NCBI GenBank assembly: GCA_038203825.1
Contig: JBBRDO010000006.1
Coordinates: forward strand, 3,760 to 67,759
Length of the DNA: 64,000 nucleotides
Source of the DNA: Chloroflexia bacterium
Lineage (GTDB): Bacteria; Chloroflexota; Chloroflexia; QHBQ01; JADMIH01
Reading direction: 5' to 3'
The notes under the pieces are model-generated. The model saw only the letters and a list, made by a program, of their open reading frames with translations, had not been told where the DNA came from and ran no database searches. Within the stretch, counting starts at the first letter, position 1; each line of letters opens with the position of its first letter. Positions 16,327 through 49,594 of this stretch are shown piece by piece. A program made the translations under genes and the position numbers.

Positions 16327-16383
16327 CGACGACGGACCACGGACGATAGACTACTAAGCAGCGTCGTCCGTGGCCCGTCGTCT
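16327..16383. repeat. Imperfect 20-bp inverted repeat (GACGACG/GACGGAC heptad family) between the ABC ATPase and permease genes
   Basis: cgacgacggaccacggacga (16327-16346) pairs with tcgtccgtggcccgtcgtct (16364-16383): 18 of 20 positions, 17-nt loop. Confidence 0.7.
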
Positions 16384-26481: not shown

Positions 26482-26693
26482 GGAACCAGGGACAGCGCTC
26501 TGCACGTCATCATGTGGGCCGTGAGAAATGTCTTTATTCAAGGTGGCGATATGGGAGACAGGCAAGTATAAACACCTCTGGCGTACCAGGCTTTCCTGCG
26601 AGTATAGCAAAGCGCCGCCCACTGTGTAAATGCCCCATTTGGCATAGTGCGGGTGGGCCAATGGTAAGGGTTGAGAGGGGAGGGTTGGCGATG

Positions 26694-26741
26694 GACGACG
26701 GACGACGGACGACCGTTGGCTATGGAGGGTCGTCCGTCGTC
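26694..26741. repeat. GACGACG/GACGGAC heptad tract forming a 14-bp perfect hairpin
   Basis: gacgacggacgacc (26701-26714) and ggtcgtccgtcgtc (26728-26741) are exact reverse complements, separated by a 13-nt loop. Confidence 0.75.
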
Positions 26742-26749
26742 TATTCGTT

Positions 26750-31095: not shown

Positions 31096-33129
31096 ATGTA
31101 TTCTCCTCAACCAAATCAGTCCGAAACGGACTACAAAGGTTCTAACGCGAACCTGAGCGACAACGACTTTGACAGCAACGGAAGCGCAAGCACACCTGAA
31201 ACATCGTACACGGCAACCGAAAACGCTTTCGCTGCCAACCCAAACGAAATAGTTCGTAACGGAGGCGAACACGTCGTTACCGACGACCTGGATGCACTAC
31301 TTTCTGCCTTGCCCAAAGAGATTGTTGAACCCATAAGGGAGCGCAACAACCGGGTCAACCTGATCGAAATCGTTATGGACCTGGGGCGCAAGCCCGAAGC
31401 ACGCTACCGTGGTAGCGAAGCCACACTCACCGAAACCGAAATAACGCGGGCAGAGCTGGACTATGTTGTAGAACACATCGGCGAATTCGGCGGCGACAAC
31501 CGCGCCGGCATCGAGCGCACGCTGCACCGTATTTCGTGTATTCGCAATCGCCGCGGCGACGTGGTGGGGCTTACCTGCCGTATTGGCCGCGCCGTGTATG
31601 GCACCATTTCCATTATAAAGGACCTCGTGGAAACGGGGCGCAGCATCCTGCTCGTGGGGCCTCCCGGTGTGGGCAAGACCACGATCTTGCGCGAGTGCGC
31701 ACGCGTGCTGGCCGACGAGCTCGGCAAGCGAGTAGTGGTGGTGGACACGTCTAACGAGATCGCGGGCGATGGCGACATCCCCCACCACTCGATTGGCCGC
31801 GCACGCAGAATGCAGGTGCCCGTGCCGGAACGGCAGCACGCGGTGATGATCGAGGCTGTGGAAAACCACATGCCCGAAGTGATCATCATTGACGAGATCG
31901 GCACCGAGCTAGAGGCGCAGGCGGCACGCACGATCGCCGAGCGCGGAGTCCAACTGGTCGGCACAGCCCACGGCACGAGCCTCGAAAATCTGATGCTCAA
32001 CCCAACCCTGAGCGACCTTGTCGGCGGCATCCAATCGGTGACGCTGAGCGACGAGGAAGCGCGCAGGCGAGGTACTCAGAAGTCGGTGCTGGAGCGAAAA
32101 GCCCCTCCAACGTTCGATATCATCGTGGAACTGCTGGATCGCGAGCGCGTGGCGGTTCACCGCGACGTGGCGGAAACGGTCGACTCCCTGTTGAGGGGGG
32201 ACATCATCCCACCCGAGATCAGGACGCGCCGAGCAGATGGCACGATACACACGGAAATCGCATATATCGCGCCACCGCCCAGCAGGCCCGGAAGCAGCAA
32301 CATGAACATGGGTGGGCGCAGCGGCGGACGCGGCGGGCAGGGTGGTAGGAGCTATGGATACGACCAGAACGTCGTGCCGATAGCGCCTCGCCGCCAGCAG
32401 ACGCCTGAGTCACCGGCGATGAGGCGCGACAGGCCATTCGGCAATGGGAATGGGAATGGGAGTGGTAACAGGGGGCGCGACGCAGGGAACAGCGGGCAAA
32501 GCCGCCCTTTTGAACAGGCCGAGACGGGTCAGGCACAGCTACAAATGCAGGCACCAACACAGCGGTACGAGCAGCGCGACCCCTGGATAGCACAACAGGA
32601 AGAGCGCGAGCGAACCCAGACTACCCGAATCGGCCCTAACCCAATGAGCGTTGCGCAGAGCGTGGCGCCGGGCAAGCCTCTCCGCATTTATCCCTTCGGC
32701 GTGGGTCGGAACCGGCTGGAGGCGGCCATCAAGAACCTACGAATACCGGCTACGATAGTACGCGAGATCGCCGACTCAGACCTGGTGATGACCCTCAAGA
32801 ACTACTATCGCAAGAGCCCGCAGTCGCTGCGTGGCGCGGAATCGGCAGGGGTGCCTGTGTTCGTCCTGCGAAGCAACACCCAGATGCAGATTGAGTCGGC
32901 GCTGGCGGGGGTGTTCAACGTTGAGCCGGTGGGTGATCCCACAACGACCGCGCTGGTCGAGACCGAGGACGCGATAACACACGTTATGGAGACCGCGAAG
33001 GCAGTAGACCTCGCGCCCCAGACGGCGGAGATACGCAAATTGCAGCACCAGCTGGCCGAACGCTACAATCTCGCATCAGTAAGCCGGGGCAAAGAGCCGT
33101 TCCGCAGGGTTCGAATCTTTCGGCAGTGA
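31096..33129 (+). CDS. Ycf45/SpoIIIAA-like AAA ATPase with a C-terminal R3H nucleic-acid-binding domain and an internal Gly/Arg/Asn-rich disordered region
   Basis: Walker [10 protein letters not shown] and Walker B VIIIDEIG. The GTAHG...[25 protein letters not shown] block is typical of Ycf45-type proteins. The C-terminal ...[25 protein letters not shown] is R3H-like. Confidence 0.85.
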
Positions 33130-33160
33130 CCGGTGACCAGTGACCAGTGACCAGTGACCA
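33126..33160. repeat. Heptamer tandem array GTGACC(G/A) x5, starting on the TGA stop of the R3H ATPase gene
   Basis: gtgaccg gtgacca gtgacca gtgacca gtgacca. The stop codon 33127-33129 is the TGA of the first heptad. Confidence 0.9.
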
Positions 33161-33226
33161 GTAAGACGACGGATTGCGGACGACCGACGATGTAACACGT
33201 TTCACTTCCGGTCACCAGTCCCCGGC

Positions 33227-33255
33227 TTGACACAATGGCAGGCTTAGGCTAGTAT
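33227..33255 (+). promoter_or_regulatory. Candidate promoter TTGACA - 17 bp - TAGTAT upstream of the DarA-like gene
   Basis: TTGACA at 33227-33232, a 17-nt spacer, TAGTAT at 33250-33255. Confidence 0.5.
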
Positions 33256-33337
33256 TACGTTCGCTGGCCGCTATTCGGTCACTGAAGAGAAACAGTCTAC
33301 GTACTTGGTTCTTCCCGTTCTGAACAAACGCATCCCT

Positions 33338-33667
33338 ATGAAAGCAGTTCTCGCAGTTGTACAGGGACAAGACACGGTGAAGCTGGGCAACGCCCTGCGC
33401 CAGAAGGGCATCCCGTTCACCACGATAGATAGTACAGGTGGCTTTCTGAGGGAACGCAATTCCACCTTTATTCTCGCTATGCCCAACGAGAACCTCGAGA
33501 GCGTGCTATCTGTGATAGCTGAGAATTGCCAGACGCGCAACGAGTATGTGTCGTCTTACCCGTCCGCGTTTGACCCGGCGGAGTTCTATATGCCCCGCCC
33601 AATCGAGGTGCAGGTGGGCGGCGCGTCGGTGTGGGTGCTGGACGTGTTGCACTTCGAGCCTCTATAG
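33338..33667 (+). CDS. darA: PII-like cyclic-di-AMP receptor, YaaQ/DarA (DUF970) family
   Basis: MKAVLAVVQGQDTVKLGNALRQKGIPFTTIDSTGGFLRERNSTFILAMP...VLSVIAENC matches the YaaQ pattern. I prefer ATG 33338 over the TTG at 33305. Confidence 0.8.
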   Translation: MKAVLAVVQGQDTVKLGNALRQKGIPFTTIDSTGGFLRERNSTFILAMPNENLESVLSVIAENCQTRNEYVSSYPSAFDPAEFYMPRPIEVQVGGASVWVLDVLHFEPL

Positions 33668-33704
33668 GGGGACGGAGTCGTAAGTCGTAAGTCGCTGATC
33701 GTAA

Positions 33705-33809
33705 GTCATGCGCGGCATCCTATGACTTACGAGTCGAAAGTCATGCGCGGCATCCTATGACTTACGAGTCGTATGTCATGCGCAGCATCCTATGACTTAC
33801 GACTCGGGA
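33705..33809. repeat. 3 x 35-bp tandem repeat, each unit a hairpin AAGTCAT-gcgcggcatcct-ATGACTT
   Basis: Units start at 33705, 33740 and 33775 (gtcatgcgc(g/a)gcatcctatgacttacga(g/c)tcg). An inverted fourth copy lies at 34462-34490. Confidence 0.9.
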
Positions 33810-33849
33810 CTTACGATCTACGACTCGTATGATATAATGGAGGGTGTAT

Positions 33850-33881
33850 GCGGCCACGGCTAGCGGTTTGGCCGCTTTTTT
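33850..33881 (+). terminator. Rho-independent terminator-like hairpin gcggcca-N12-tggccgc followed by TTTTTT
   Basis: 7-bp GC stem (33850-33856 / 33869-33875) plus T6 (33876-33881). This is the only canonical stem plus U-tract I found in the window. Confidence 0.6.
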
Positions 33882-33955
33882 GCGAAATCGGAACGACGGT
33901 TAGAAACCGGGAGGCGTCATCTCTGTAAACGGGGTGGGGCAAAAGATAGGGAATT

Positions 33956-34390
33956 ATGTCGGCGGAGCTTCTAAATCAGGTAGCGTTTATTCTTCAAATA
34001 CTTCTCGCGTGTACGGGCGCGTATTTACTTGCACTCTATTTTTCGAGCATCGTGTGGGCATATCGTGACATCACTGTGCGCACCCGCGATATCTTCTCAA
34101 TTGCTCTGGGTCTGGCGCTGGTGATACTGGTGCCTTTTGCAGGCCTGGTCTTGTACATGGTGCTGAGGCCGAAAGAGACGTTGTCGGAGTCCTACGAGCG
34201 CGCGCTTGAGGAAGAATATCTGCTACAAGATATTGAGGACACGGAGCTGTGCCCGTCATGCAAGCACCGTGTGAGCCCCGAATTTCTCTATTGCCCCCAC
34301 TGCCGCACCAAGCTGCGCGACGAGTGCGAGAACTGCGGCCGCCCGATTAGCGTACGCTGGGCCGCCTGCCCGTATTGCGGCAAACAGTAG
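33956..34390 (+). CDS. Membrane protein with a C-terminal double zinc ribbon, unknown function
   Basis: Two TM helices followed by CPSCKHRV...CPHCRTKL...CENCGRPI...CPYCG. Confidence 0.75.
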   Translation: MSAELLNQVAFILQILLACTGAYLLALYFSSIVWAYRDITVRTRDIFSIALGLALVILVPFAGLVLYMVLRPKETLSESYERALEEEYLLQDIEDTELCPSCKHRVSPEFLYCPHCRTKLRDECENCGRPISVRWAACPYCGKQ

Positions 34391-34400
34391 ACGAGTCGTA

Positions 34401-34454
34401 GATCGTAAGTCGCTGATCGTAAGTCGCTGATCGTAAGTCGCTGATCGTAAGTCC
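34401..34454. repeat. 14-bp tandem repeat gatcgtaagtcgct x about 4 (two heptads per unit)
   Basis: Read directly. It begins 11 nt after the stop of the zinc-ribbon gene. Confidence 0.9.
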
Positions 34455-34504
34455 CGAGTCGTAAGTCATAAGATGCCGCGCATGACTTACGACTCGGGAC
34501 TTAC
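34447..34504. terminator. Perfect 23-bp inverted repeat with a 12-nt loop between convergent genes (no U-tract)
   Basis: gtaagtcccgagtcgtaagtcat (34447-34469) and atgacttacgactcgggacttac (34482-34504) are exact reverse complements. The loop aagatgccgcgc is the reverse complement of the loop in the upstream 35-bp units, with one change. Confidence 0.6.
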
Positions 34505-34524
34505 GATCTATGACTCGCCCGGCC

Positions 34525-35448
34525 TTACCAGCGGGGCCACGATTCGGTGGCTTCGGCTCTTAGTTTCGTGTAGCTTTCGTAGCGAGAGGGGTAGATTTCG
34601 CCCATGTCGAGGGCGGCGCGTACGGCGCAACCGGGCTCGGTGAGGTGAGCGCAGTTGTTGAACTGGCATTTGCCCAGGTATGGCTCGAACTCGGGAAAGC
34701 AGTAGGGCAATTCGTCGGGCGGCACCAGCCACAAGCCAACCTCGCGCAGGCCGGCAGTATCTGCAACGCGAGCACCATCGGGGAGCCTGATCAGGAATCC
34801 GCCAACTGTTGTATGCCTGCCTTTTCCATAGGCGTCGCTGAGCCTGCCCACCTTGAGGTCGAGGTTCAGCTCGGGATAGAGGCTGTTCAGGAGGCTCGAT
34901 TTGCCCACACCAGAGGGACCGACAAGGACAGACTCTTTACCGGCCAGGCCTGCTCGTAGCTCGTCGAGGCCCTCGCCCGTTTCGGCGCTCGTGAAGTGGA
35001 GAGGGTAGCCAGCGTCGACGTAGGGCTGCAGCAGGGCGGTGATCGCGTCGCGGGAGGCGAGGTCCATTTTGTTAATGACGATGCGAGCAAGGAGCTCGTT
35101 GGCCTCTACTACTACCAGGAAGCGGTCGAGAGTGGGCAGGGTGAGGGCGGGCAAGGTGGCTGAAAAGACCACTATCACCTGGTCTATATTTGCAATAAGG
35201 ACCTGTTTACGGTGCGATGGGCCGGCAGCACGGCGGGCCAGGACGCTCTTGCGCGGCAGGATTCCTTTGATGGCCCAACCCTCGCCCACCTGTTCGATCT
35301 GGACGAAGTCGCCCACAGCGGGCGGGTCGTCGCGGAAGAGCCTGCCACGGATGGTGCACTCGACCATGCGGTCGCCGACCTGCACAGTTGCCACGTCGGC
35401 GTAGAGGCGCACGAGTTGTGCCTGTTCGTTCTCCAGATCCTGCTCCAA
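34525..35448 (-). CDS. rsgA: Ribosome small-subunit-dependent GTPase A (RsgA/YjeQ)
   Basis: OB-fold N-terminus. G motifs NKMDL and GPSGVGKSSLLN. Zinc knuckle CQFNNCAHLTEPGCAV. I place the start at TTG 35448, preceded by AGGAGG. The ORF track's extra 19 codons are encoded by repeat DNA. Confidence 0.9.
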   Translation of the reverse strand: MEQDLENEQAQLVRLYADVATVQVGDRMVECTIRGRLFRDDPPAVGDFVQIEQVGEGWAIKGILPRKSVLARRAAGPSHRKQVLIANIDQVIVVFSATLPALTLPTLDRFLVVVEANELLARIVINKMDLASRDAITALLQPYVDAGYPLHFTSAETGEGLDELRAGLAGKESVLVGPSGVGKSSLLNSLYPELNLDLKVGRLSDAYGKGRHTTVGGFLIRLPDGARVADTAGLREVGLWLVPPDELPYCFPEFEPYLGKCQFNNCAHLTEPGCAVRAALDMGEIYPSRYESYTKLRAEATESWPRW

Positions 35449-35570
35449 AATGCCTCCTGTGGGACGATGGACGACCGATGACCGAATACGGATCACGAAG
35501 ATCACGAAGGTTAAGAGATCACTAAGATTTAGGAAGGTTTAAGAGTTAAGAGCGCAGACCGGCGATATAT

Positions 35571-35614
35571 CACTCATCACTCATCACTCATCACTCATCA
35601 CTTATCACTCATCA
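35571..35614. repeat. Heptamer tandem array CACT(C/T)AT x6 (reverse complement ATGAGTG)
   Basis: cactcat x4, cacttat, cactcat, read directly. It lies in the divergent intergenic region between rsgA and the small ORFs. Confidence 0.9.
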
Positions 35615-45395: not shown

Positions 45396-45410
45396 TGATG
45401 CATGAGCACG

Positions 45411-45446
45411 ACTTACGATCAGCGATTTACGATCAGCGACTTACGG
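45411..45446. repeat. 14-bp repeat ttacgatcagcga x about 2.5, the reverse complement of the 34401-34454 unit
   Basis: acttacgatcagcg atttacgatcagcg acttacgg, read directly. Confidence 0.85.
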
Positions 45447-47144: not shown

Positions 47145-47246
47145 CGAGTCGTAGATCGTAAGTCTCAGATCGTAGATCGTAAGTCATGCGCCACAGGCAA
47201 TTCGCAACATGCGACTTACGATCAGAGACCTACGATCTACGACTCG
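47145..47246. repeat. Long imperfect palindrome built from GTCGTAG/ATCGTAA heptads
   Basis: Left arm cgagtcgtagatcgtaagtctcagatcgtagatcgtaagtcatgcg (47145-47190). Right arm catgcgacttacgatcagagacctacgatctacgactcg (47208-47246). The outer 16 bp are perfect. Confidence 0.8.
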
Positions 47247-49473: not shown

Positions 49474-49482
49474 AACTCTCGA

Positions 49483-49510
49483 AGTCGCTGATCGTAGGTC
49501 ACAGATCGTA
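49483..49510. repeat. Two copies of the 14-bp heptad-pair repeat (agtcgctgatcgta ggtcacagatcgta)
   Basis: Read directly. It lies between the bpsA-like start and the GH13 stop, followed by a GACGGAC-type tract at about 49530-49555. Confidence 0.75.
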
Positions 49511-49594
49511 AGTCGTCACGTATCACGCCATCGTCCGTCGATGAGACGATGTGTGGTATTAATGGTCCGATGGTCTACAGATTACTGTGCGTTC

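What the first reader, a model, noticed from the sequence alone, without database searches (positions are those of the whole stretch)
33668..34516. Small zinc-ribbon membrane gene bracketed by paralogous composite repeat blocks
- **Upstream block (33668-33830).** It holds GTCGTAA heptads, then 3 x 35-bp hairpin units (AAGTCAT-gcgcggcatcct-ATGACTT), then atgacttacgactcgggacttacgatcta.
- **Downstream block (34391-34516).** It holds 4 x 14-bp repeats and an inverted copy of the hairpin unit inside a perfect 23-bp palindrome. It ends with the same 29-bp sequence atgacttacgactcgggacttacgatcta (33792-33820 = 34482-34510, direct orientation).
- **Loop conservation.** The hairpin loop is conserved across all four copies (gcgcggcatcYt). 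This argues for sequence-specific recognition rather than a generic stem.
- **Consequence.** Direct 29-bp repeats flanking a 435-bp gene could mediate its deletion or duplication, or they could mark a cassette-like unit.
Basis: seen in the sequence. Interest (0 to 1): 0.6.

Follow-up and report, generated by a model that had tools for sequence, protein, structure and literature searches.

The report
Heptad-built foldback repeats flanking core gene
The repeats on both sides of this small zinc-ribbon membrane gene are real, but they are two neighbouring copies of a fast-changing hairpin repeat family that fills many gaps between genes in this soil Chloroflexia lineage; they do not mark a movable gene cassette.

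Summary
**Observation.** Confirmed, and far beyond chance.

**What the blocks are.** Both are copies of one foldback element:
- a 20-nt terminal inverted repeat, CGAGTCGTAGATCGTAAGTC;
- 36-nt arms made of five 7-nt units;
- a 12-nt loop.

The upstream copy has its core tripled (3 x 35 bp). The downstream copy has 3 x 14 bp inserted in one arm.

**Not specific to this gene.**
- The window holds a third full copy (47145-47246) and further arrays of the same units.
- Source-metagenome depth over the 14-bp array is about 300-fold that of the gene.
- 45 JGI metagenome contigs carry the terminus, with very different interiors.

**The gene is not a cassette.**
- It has relatives at 514 or more loci in GTDB representative genomes across Chloroflexota.
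- It lies in the fixed order R3H ATPase, darA, zinc-ribbon gene.

**The blocks turn over quickly.**
- A strain with the identical protein carries different heptad hairpins in both gaps.
- A 98% relative has none.
- Others carry their own 7-8-nt spellings at the same two gaps.

**Other claims.**
- The loop is private to this locus and is no better conserved than the stem.
- No deletion or inversion variant was seen.

**Verdict.** An ordinary REPIN/MITE-like dispersed repeat in an undescribed heptad-armed form. Cassette and loop-recognition readings are not supported.

The parts
33305..33667 (+). darA-like cyclic-di-AMP receptor gene (120 aa). Its stop codon lies 7 nt before the upstream block.
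   Evidence: Pfam PF06153, E = 2.5e-30. It sits directly upstream of the zinc-ribbon gene across Chloroflexia and Thermomicrobiales.
33675..33828 (.). Upstream B-type foldback element (154 nt): heptad left arm, three tandem 35-bp hairpin cores, heptad right arm.
   Evidence: RNA fold -80.5 kcal/mol, z = -8.0. Replaced by other heptad modules in L008/L009 and absent in L010.
33699..33806 (+). 3.1 tandem copies of the 35-bp unit (five heptads): AAGTCAT, GCGCGGCATCCT, ATGACTT plus a linker.
   Evidence: TRF score 188, 93% matches. Pattern search gives 0 expected by chance. Unit alignment.
33792..33820 (+). 29-mer, first direct copy. It is the inner part of the right arm.
   Evidence: Exact match.
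33829..33881 (+). Conserved module that bounds the block on its right: TGATATAAT (-10-like), 11 nt, GCGGCC...GGCCGC hairpin, T-run.
   Evidence: Found with my pattern in 21 of the 30 loci whose protein is at least 70% identical, many of which have no heptad block beside it. Identity between window and L008/L009 resumes exactly at TATGATATAAT.
33956..34390 (+). Zinc-ribbon membrane gene (144 aa): two N-terminal hydrophobic helices, an acidic helix (LEEEYLLQDIED) and a C-terminal double zinc ribbon.
   Evidence: Pfam DZR PF12773, E = 1.5e-11. 153 homologs. 514 or more loci in GTDB representatives. Invariant Cys pairs in alignment A1.
34391..34517 (.). Downstream B-type foldback element (127 nt). 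It fills the gap between the convergent zinc-ribbon and rsgA genes.
   Evidence: RNA fold -72.9 kcal/mol (+ strand) and -68.6 kcal/mol (- strand). Replaced by a 45-nt C-type heptad hairpin in L008/L009. The gap is only 9 nt in L010.
34401..34467 (+). 4.8 copies of the 14-bp unit GATCGTAAGTCGCT. Three of them form a 42-nt insert in the left arm.
   Evidence: TRF. Removing 3 x 14 nt restores a left arm complementary to the right arm with one mismatch. Summed contig depth is about 4000 against about 10 for the gene.
34443..34508 (.). 27-bp perfect stem around the inverted copy of the 12-nt loop (AAGATGCCGCGC).
34482..34510 (+). 29-mer, second direct copy.
   Evidence: Exact match.
34525..35505 (-). 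rsgA GTPase gene, convergent with the zinc-ribbon gene.
   Evidence: Pfam PF03193, E = 1.3e-49.
47145..47246 (.). Third B-type foldback in the window. It has the same 20-nt termini and a different centre.
45409..45445 (-). B-type 14-bp array (reverse orientation) downstream of a small carrier-protein gene.
49480..49518 (+). B-type heptads (AAGTCGCTGATCGTAGGTCACAGATCGTAAGTCG) beside a gene start.

Best explanation
**What the blocks are.** They are two neighbouring copies of one dispersed, non-coding foldback repeat family, here called B-type.

**Basic element (about 84 nt).**
- A 20-nt terminal inverted repeat, CGAGTCGTAGATCGTAAGTC.
- 36-nt arms made of five 7-nt units.
- A 12-nt centre.

**How the two copies arose.**
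- Both descend from the same local master copy, because only they share the centre GCGCGGCATCCT. That sharing is shown. Whether the copying was local duplication or gene conversion over about 700 bp is inferred.
- Each copy then grew by slippage in multiples of 7 nt. The upstream core became 3 x 35 bp. The downstream left arm gained 3 x 14 bp.

**How the family behaves.**
- It spreads and turns over like REPIN/MITE-type selfish DNA combined with microsatellite-type unit gain and loss.
- It fills intergenic gaps up to their functional limits: the stop codon, the ribosome-binding site and the promoter.

**Relation to the gene.**
- The family has no specific relation to the zinc-ribbon gene.
- That gene is a conserved chromosomal partner of darA, with its own conserved promoter-like module.

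**Likely consequence (inferred, not shown).**
- When transcribed, each block forms a very stable hairpin at the 3' end of the darA message and of the convergent zinc-ribbon and rsgA messages.
- This may hinder read-through or 3' exonucleases.
For: **Anatomy**
- The two blocks and the third copy at 47145-47246 share the 20-nt termini and the heptad arms.
- After removal of the 3 x 14 nt, the arms of the downstream copy pair with one mismatch.

**Dispersal**
- The word CGTAAGTC occurs 20 times in the window, counting both strands. All 20 lie in five intergenic gaps. About 2 would be expected by chance (my arithmetic).
- In the source metagenomes the 14-bp-array bin has a summed depth of about 4000, against about 10-15 for the flanking genes. 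181-194 contigs were laid there, and their loose ends are diverse.
- 45 JGI contigs hold the exact 20-mer terminus.
- Intergenic DNA of the window shows an autocorrelation peak at lags 7, 14 and 28, even without these two gaps. Coding DNA does not.

**Turnover**
- L008/L009 encode the identical zinc-ribbon protein. Upstream they keep only the left B terminus followed by other heptad modules. Downstream they carry a C-type heptad hairpin.
- L010 (98% aa) has neither block.
- L107 (98% aa) has the B terminus 1 nt after the same stop codon, with a different interior.
- The allelic pair L095/L097 differs by whole 7-nt units. The pairs L094/L099 and L096/L108 differ by presence or absence of modules or by an indel.
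- More distant relatives carry other 7-8-nt spellings as palindromes in the same two gaps: L016, L019, L023, L029, L017, L014.

**The gene is core**
- It has relatives at 514 or more loci across Chloroflexota.
- The order R3H ATPase, darA, zinc-ribbon gene is conserved.

**No loop-specific signal**
- Two of the three differences among the four copies lie in the loop.
- The loop 22-mer is absent from JGI metagenomes.
- Depth over the loop bin equals single-copy depth.

**Not tied to 3' ends**
- The termini abut gene ends in 19 loci and gene starts in 20 loci.
Against: - No transposase or other mobilising enzyme was identified.
- No target-site duplication was evident.
- The termini sit 0-3 nt after stop codons in about a dozen independent loci, and 16-24 nt before start codons in others. 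This placement is tighter than simple filler predicts. It could reflect target choice or function.
- Orthologous gaps in many relatives hold a palindrome of some spelling. This also fits selection for a hairpin at these positions.
- The private shared loop shows a direct link between the two blocks. The mechanism of that link is not established.
Confidence: 0.72

Rival explanations
1. **Adaptive transcript punctuation.** The foldbacks are selected RNA hairpins. They would terminate transcription without a U-tract, insulate the darA, zinc-ribbon and rsgA transcription units from each other, or protect 3' ends from exonucleases. This is the role proposed for REP elements.
For: - The predicted hairpins are very stable on both strands.
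- Both blocks begin 0-7 nt after a stop codon.
- Relatives keep some palindrome, with a different spelling, in the same two gaps.
- In L016 and L019 the centres of different copies differ yet each still pairs.
I did not check this for the whole window.
Against: - L010 and L001-L003 have no such element in either gap, yet keep the genes.
- As many termini lie just upstream of gene starts as lie after gene ends.
- No T-run follows either hairpin.
- A conserved GC hairpin with a T-run already follows darA at 33850-33881.
- No usable RNA data exist for this organism.
Confidence: 0.18
2. **Cassette or recombination unit.** The direct 29-mers, or the inverted blocks, would let the zinc-ribbon gene be deleted, duplicated, inverted or moved as a unit.
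For: - Exact 29-nt direct repeats lie 690 nt apart.
- A 61-nt inverted match at 92% flanks the gene.
- In L029 the same gap holds a small 23S_rRNA_IVP gene between inverted heptad arrays. Such arms can therefore enclose a gene.
Against: - The gene and its neighbours keep the same order in dozens of genomes, with or without repeats.
- No joint skipping 690 nt, and no credible inversion joint, appears in eight runs. One opposite-strand joint comes from run X4, whose strain lacks these blocks at this locus.
- There are no attC core sites.
- The gene has its own conserved -10-like module.
Confidence: 0.04
3. **Loop-specific binding site.** The GCGCGGCATCCT loop, presented four times on heptad stems, would be recognised by a protein or an RNA that regulates the zinc-ribbon gene.
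For: - There are four copies, at most 1 mismatch in the loop, on both sides of the gene.
- The right arm of the upstream block runs up to the -10-like box, so it occupies the -35 position.
Against: - The loop is not better conserved than the stem.
- It is absent in strains with the identical protein, in L107 and in JGI metagenomes.
- The three upstream copies form a recent tandem duplication, 93-100% identical over all 35 nt.
- The sequence lies in the heptad frame of the array, since 35 = 5 x 7.
Confidence: 0.04
4. **Assembly artefact.** The composite blocks would come from mis-joined repeats in a metagenome-assembled genome.
For: - k=31 contigs break inside both blocks.
- The number of identical 14-bp units cannot be verified from them.
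Against: - Logan contigs from three runs cover 33300-33705, 33678-33732, 33707-33767, 33742-34418 and 34424-34900 with no differences. They link the variant-specific unit junctions to the gene on both sides.
- Orthologous contigs from other samples show elements at the same borders.
Confidence: 0.02

Closest known systems
REP / BIME elements and REPINs (extragenic palindromes of Proteobacteria, linked to RAYT tyrosine transposases; PMC3116915, PMC3733652)
   Same: - Short, dispersed, extragenic, hairpin-forming and species-specific.
- Often placed just after coding regions.
- A REPIN is two inverted arms around a short spacer, as here.
- Clusters and dimers occur.
- No target-site duplication.
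- PMC3733652 reports GTAG-tagged REPs in Chloroflexi as well.
   Different: - The arms here are built of phased 7-nt units that vary in number.
- GTAG lies inside the terminus (positions 7-10), not at its end.
- The interiors are mosaics of further heptad modules.
- No RAYT gene has been tied to them. This could not be tested.
Cyanobacterial STRR heptanucleotide repeats and long simple-sequence repeats of 5-11 nt in prokaryotes
   Same: - Tandem 7-nt units confined to intergenic DNA.
- Lineage-specific spellings and variable copy number.
[quoted passage not shown]
- The description of STRR itself is from my own knowledge (Mazel et al. 1990). I did not read that paper here.
   Different: - Here the arrays are arranged as inverted arms with conserved 20-nt termini. 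They form long foldbacks, not simple direct arrays.
TAACTGA direct repeats of marine Beggiatoaceae (PMC4679880) and the quadruplex-forming repeat of Xanthomonas and Nostoc (PMC4692102)
   Same: - The Beggiatoaceae repeat is a heptamer.
- Abundant intergenic repeats, often close to start codons, with a suspected post-transcriptional role.
   Different: - The Beggiatoaceae case is almost entirely direct repeats of one spelling upstream of start codons. Only one inverted set was reported.
- The present elements are palindromic, use several spellings and lie at both gene ends.
MITEs (for example Correia/NEMIS, ERIC, RUP)
   Same: - Terminal inverted repeats, a size of 100-150 bp, intergenic location and folding in RNA.
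   Different: - No target-site duplication was found.
- No parent insertion sequence was found.
- The interior is made of tandem short units.
Integron gene cassettes with attC sites
   Same: - A small ORF followed by an imperfect palindrome of 57-141 bp.
   Different: - No RYYYAAC/GTTRRRY core sites are present.
- The gene is in fixed synteny across a phylum.
- The gene has its own promoter-like module.
- The palindrome family also lies next to unrelated genes.

Membership tests
REP / REPIN | High-copy dispersal in extragenic DNA of one genome | tested here: inconclusive
   - Five gaps in 64 kb hold the family.
- Source metagenomes show about 300-fold excess depth and 181-194 contigs.
- 45 JGI contigs hold the terminus.
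REP / REPIN | Two inverted arms around a short spacer that fold into one hairpin | tested here: met
   36-nt arms with a 12-nt loop. The downstream copy has a 27-bp perfect stem.
REP / REPIN | GTAG (or CGTC) tetranucleotide at one end of each REP | tested here: not met
   The terminus reads CGAGTCGTAG... GTAG is present but lies 6 nt in from the end. The criterion comes from PMC3733652.
REP / REPIN | A cognate RAYT (IS200/IS605-like Y1 transposase) gene flanked by the repeats | not testable with these tools
None of the four genes scanned near the blocks is a transposase.
MITE | Terminal inverted repeats | tested here: met
   A 20-nt terminus lies at both ends of the copies at 34391-34517 and 47145-47246 and of many JGI copies.
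MITE | Target-site duplication flanking the element | tested here: inconclusive
   None is seen for the three window copies. One JGI copy (L105) has ACAACTAG on both sides, while the others have nothing consistent.
MITE | A related autonomous element with the same termini that encodes a transposase | not tested
The longest interior between two termini (L118, about 340 nt) holds no long ORF by eye.
Heptanucleotide SSR / STRR-type repeats | Tandem 7-nt units, intergenic, with copy number varying between strains | tested here: met
   - TRF finds arrays of period 7, 14 and 35.
- The lag-7 autocorrelation peak appears only in intergenic DNA.
- The allelic pair L095/L097 differs by whole units.
Integron gene cassette (attC) | attC core sites RYYYAAC and GTTRRRY at the ends of the palindrome | tested here: not met
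   Neither block contains a match.
Integron gene cassette (attC) | A mobile, promoterless ORF found in varying contexts | tested here: not met
   The darA, zinc-ribbon gene order is fixed in Chloroflexia and Thermomicrobiales. A conserved -10-like module lies upstream.
Intrinsic (Rho-independent) terminator | A GC-rich stem followed directly by a U-tract | tested here: not met
   No T-run follows either foldback on either strand. The scan reports terminator-like sites only at the separate hairpin around 33857-33876 and a few other places outside the blocks.

The most novel reading that the evidence does not exclude
Heptad-armed foldbacks may be a distinct, still unnamed class of propagating element, not decayed REPs or MITEs.

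**The reading.**
- A lineage-specific trans-acting machine reads or writes the 7-nt units. Candidates are a single-strand HUH nuclease or a templated repeat-adding enzyme.
- This machine sets them down at gene borders: 0-3 nt after stop codons and about 16-24 nt before start codons.
- Each lineage gets its own spelling, while the same gaps stay occupied.
- The elements can take cargo in their loop, as with the 23S_rRNA_IVP gene in L029.

**What it would mean for this locus.** The two blocks around the zinc-ribbon gene would be a recent local write event, and the private loop would mark a shared template.
Probability: 0.1. Interest if true: 0.8.

Novelty: new variant of a known kind. Interest (0 to 1): 0.35.

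Why it matters
**For this locus.**
- The result removes a false lead. The zinc-ribbon gene is not a cassette, and the loop is not a demonstrated recognition site.

**More broadly.**
- It documents a heptad-armed foldback repeat family in uncultured soil and sediment Chloroflexia. My four literature searches found no description of such repeats in Chloroflexi.
- The family has conserved 20-nt termini, interiors that change between strains whose genes are 91-96% identical, and tight placement against stop codons and ribosome-binding sites.
- Such elements break short-read assemblies at nearly every gap.
- They can create or erase RNA hairpins and promoter -35 regions between close strains.
- They offer strain-level markers.
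- Similar designs have been noted by other readers of this scan in unrelated phyla. If one mechanism lies behind them all, it is not yet described.

**A separate lead.**
- The conserved darA and zinc-ribbon membrane protein pair is a testable clue to a c-di-AMP signalling target in Chloroflexota.

Tried and rejected
No census of the window's own genome and no search for a RAYT-type transposase were possible.

**Scans that found nothing**
- The 14-mer-dimer 20-mer gave 0 hits in genome contigs. The window's own assembly is evidently not in that collection, and no representative genome carries this exact array.
- The loop 22-mer gave 0 hits in JGI metagenome contigs.

**RNA families**
- Rfam at E <= 1 gave only a chance mir-44 match on the palindrome.

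**RNA runs**
- No run holds this organism. The best share of words was 0.14. Laying four runs showed only low-depth pieces of relatives, plus B-type arrays from other loci. Transcription and 3' ends remain untested.

**Deletion or inversion variants**
- The joints reported were considered: 33710>34393, 33826>34396, 33827>34391 and the opposite-strand joints.
- They were rejected. Their shorter sides are 18-37 letters, they do not match the 690-nt skip that recombination through the 29-mer would give, and several occur in run X4, whose strain lacks these blocks at this locus.

**Readings rejected**
- An integron attC reading.
- A single heptad superfamily held in constant phase across modules. 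I parsed the phase by eye in L122 and it shifts between modules.

**Literature**
- Searches for heptad repeats in Chloroflexi found nothing specific.

**Strict test too insensitive**
- A strict lag-7 tract caller (19 of 21 matches) found only two arrays, because the units alternate. The autocorrelation profile was used instead.
Full report
**1. The observation**

- TRF finds AGTCGTA-type heptads at 33676-33707, a 35-bp unit repeated 3.1 times at 33699-33806 (93% matches) and a 14-bp unit repeated 4.8 times at 34401-34467.
- The 26-nt hairpin unit AAGTCAT-GCGCGGCATCCT-ATGACTT matches three times on the + strand upstream and once on the - strand downstream. The copies have 0, 0, 2 and 1 mismatches, and none is expected in shuffles.
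- The 29-mer is exact at 33792-33820 and 34482-34510. A third, inverted copy lies at 34441-34469.
- Two details need correction. The perfect downstream stem is 27 bp, not 23. Each block is also one long foldback: -80.5 kcal/mol (z = -8.0) upstream and -72.9 kcal/mol (z = -9.9) downstream, with a similar value on the minus strand.
- Logan contigs of three sediment runs reproduce all unique junctions.

**2. Anatomy**

Parsing in sevens shows that both blocks derive from one design.
- The terminus is CGAGTCGTAGATCGTAAGTC.
- The arm is AGTCGTA GATCGTA AGTCCCG AGTCGTA AGTCAT.
- A 12-nt centre follows, then the complementary arm.
- In the downstream block, deleting the three inserted GCTGATCGTAAGTC units leaves a left arm that pairs with the right arm with one mismatch.
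- In the upstream block, the 35-bp core (five heptads) is tripled.
- A third element at 47145-47246 has the same termini and a different centre.
- Shorter arrays of the same units lie at 45409-45445 and 49480-49518.
- Both blocks fill their gaps. The upstream block runs from 7 nt after the darA stop codon to the base before TATGATATAAT. The downstream block starts at the base after the TAG of the zinc-ribbon gene and ends 7 nt before the rsgA stop codon.

**3. The gene and its neighbours**
- The 144-aa product has two hydrophobic N-terminal helices, an acidic helix and a double zinc ribbon (Pfam DZR; alignment A1).
- It has 153 homologs in the protein search.
- It has relatives at 514 or more loci in GTDB representative genomes of Chloroflexia, Thermomicrobiales, Anaerolineae, Caldilineae and Sphaerobacterales.
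- In Chloroflexia and Thermomicrobiales the order R3H/Ycf45-type ATPase, darA, zinc-ribbon gene is kept. In the closer relatives rsgA converges on it.
- This is a core gene in fixed synteny, not a cassette.

**4. The same gaps in relatives**
- L008/L009 encode the identical zinc-ribbon protein, with neighbouring proteins 93-98% identical.
  - Upstream they keep only CGAGTCGCAGATCGTAAGTCG, followed by GACGGAC- and GGTCGTC-type units.
  - Downstream they carry a 45-nt hairpin of C-type heptads.
  - Identity with the window resumes exactly at TATGATATAAT and at the end of rsgA.
  - C-type hairpins also occur in the window, at 16328-16382 and 26691-26744. One family has therefore replaced another at this site.
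- L010 (98% aa) has no repeat in either gap, and its downstream gap is 9 nt. It does have a GATCGTA x 3 array elsewhere.
- L107 (98% aa, 91% nt) has the B terminus 1 nt after the same TAG. Its interior is made of ATACGTC and ACGTATC units.
- L001-L003 (87% aa) have no repeats there.
- More distant Chloroflexia carry palindromes with their own spellings in these gaps.
  - L016 and L019 have ACGCCAAG octads in both gaps. L016 has a third copy 3 kb away.
  - L023 has GGGTCAG in both gaps.
  - L029 has GAATTAT in both gaps.
  - L017 has GCGTATT, and L014 has ACTGAGG.
  - L011 and L015 have GCGCAGAG-type units.
- Bracketing by same-family foldbacks therefore recurs, each time with unrelated sequences. 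In L016 the same family also lies beside another gene 3 kb away.

**5. Dispersal**
- CGTAAGTC occurs 20 times in the window, counting both strands. All 20 lie in five intergenic gaps by my reading. About 2 would be expected by chance (my arithmetic).
- In the source metagenomes the bin holding the 14-bp array has a summed depth of about 4000, against 10-15 for the genes. 181-194 contigs were laid there, with unrelated loose ends.
- The bin holding the loop (33732-33785) stays at single-copy depth.
- The exact 20-mer terminus occurs on 45 JGI metagenome contigs.
  - The interiors there are mosaics with a recurring order: B, CATRCGT, CACTTAT, GGTCACT or GGTCGTC, B'.
  - The allelic pair L095/L097 differs by whole 7-nt units. 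The pairs L094/L099 and L096/L108 differ by presence or absence of modules or by an indel.
- The termini abut gene ends in 19 cases, often 0-3 nt from the stop codon. They abut gene starts in 20 cases, mostly 16-24 nt upstream.
- Intergenic DNA of the window shows autocorrelation peaks at lags 7, 14 and 28, even when the two gaps are left out. Coding DNA does not.

**6.
- *Loop recognition.*
  - Among the four copies there are three differences, and two of them lie in the loop.
  - The loop is missing from the nearest relatives and from JGI metagenomes.
  - The three upstream copies are a recent tandem duplication.
  - The conservation reflects recency, not constraint.
- *Deletion, duplication or cassette.*
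  - No joint skipping 690 nt was found.
  - The joints listed have 18-37 letters on their shorter side and fit other family members. Several occur in run X4, whose strain lacks these blocks at this locus.
  - Contigs drop rare variants, so rare events are not excluded.
  - attC core sites are absent.

**7. Mechanism**
- *Shown.* The blocks belong to a dispersed foldback family, have rapid interiors with conserved termini, gain and lose whole units, are independent of gene identity, and are directly related to each other.
- *Inferred.* One block was copied from the other, or both were converted from one template. They grew by slippage. When transcribed, they form hairpins at the 3' ends of the darA message and of the zinc-ribbon and rsgA messages.
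- *Function.*
  - Whether the hairpins have a selected role is open.
  - For a role: placement against stop codons, and recurrent occupation of the same gaps.
  - Against a role: close relatives without any element, as many termini at 5' ends as at 3' ends, no U-tract, and a separate conserved hairpin with a T-run at 33850-33881.
- *Odds.*
  - About 0.72 for selfish or neutral repeat turnover with incidental hairpins.
  - About 0.18 for adaptive punctuation.
  - A few percent each for the cassette, loop-binding and artefact readings.

**8. Comparison with known systems**
- The closest systems are REP/BIME/REPIN elements (PMC3116915, PMC3733652), cyanobacterial STRR heptamers (my own knowledge), other long simple-sequence repeats and heptamer arrays (PMC4679880, PMC4692102) and MITEs.
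- The element works like a REPIN: a dispersed extragenic foldback.
- It fails the terminal-GTAG criterion, and a RAYT gene could not be looked for.
- It shares tandem 7-nt units and strain-variable copy number with STRR-type repeats, but it adds conserved termini and inverted arms.
- I file it as a new variant of a known kind.
- Notes from other agents of this scan describe heptad-armed palindromes in Patescibacteria, a Bacillus-like genome and Alphaproteobacteria. In several of these, sister species carry other spellings at the same gaps. These notes are leads, not evidence.

**9. Limits**
- No RNA data exist for the organism.
- The copy number of the 14-bp units rests on the original assembly.

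Noticed in passing
window 33829-33881; also L001-L005, L008-L013, L015, L016, L018-L024, L028: A module of TG-n-TATAAT, 11-13 nt, (G)CGGCC...GGCCGC hairpin and a T-run lies 81-165 nt upstream of the zinc-ribbon start codon. My pattern found it in 21 of the 30 loci whose protein is at least 70% identical. Many of these have no heptad block beside it. The GGCC stem halves are invariant, so there is no covariation. It may be the darA terminator overlapping the zinc-ribbon promoter, or a 5' leader or attenuator.
   Followed up: partly
window 31096-34390; L001-L089: The gene order R3H/Ycf45-type ATPase, darA (c-di-AMP receptor), two-helix double-zinc-ribbon membrane protein is conserved through Chloroflexia and Thermomicrobiales. 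Anaerolineae have the zinc-ribbon gene without darA beside it. This suggests a functional link between DarA and this membrane protein.
   Followed up: partly
L090-L134 (JGI metagenome contigs): Elements with the B-type terminus have mosaic interiors in a recurring order: B heptads, CATRCGT units, CACTTAT units, GGTCACT or GGTCGTC units, then inverted B. Each module varies in copy number. The allelic contigs L095 and L097 swap one CATACGT unit for one CACTTAT unit at constant total length.
   Followed up: partly
L090-L134 and window 34391, 47145: The outer end of the terminus lies 0-3 nt after a stop codon in about a dozen independent loci, and 16-24 nt before a start codon (just outside the ribosome-binding site) in about a dozen others. 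This is tighter packing than I would expect from random insertion.
   Followed up: partly
L029 2474-2930: In this relative the zinc-ribbon/rsgA gap holds a 115-aa 23S_rRNA_IVP (four-helix-bundle) gene, Pfam E = 8.5e-24. It lies between inverted GAATTAT heptad arrays, as if it were carried in the loop of a heptad foldback. L004 has another IVP gene 3 kb downstream.
   Followed up: partly
L016 3600-3860, 4433-4620, 7680-7870; L019 3662-3850, 4433-4620: Foldbacks of about 180 nt have arms of ACGCCAAG octads. Their central hairpins (GGAGCAGGGTAC...GTACCCTGCTCC and variants) differ between copies, yet each stays self-complementary.
   Followed up: no
window 33124-33165 and 35567-35614: The two gaps next to the finding also hold heptad arrays. 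GTGACCA x 5.6 overlaps the stop codon of the R3H ATPase gene, and ATCACTC x 6.6 lies upstream of rsgA. Four consecutive gaps are therefore occupied.
   Followed up: no
L122 535-712: The 15 nt on either side of this B-type element are reverse complements of each other (tctctgggagagtga / tcactctcccagaga). The palindrome therefore extends beyond the termini and includes an apparent stop codon.
   Followed up: no
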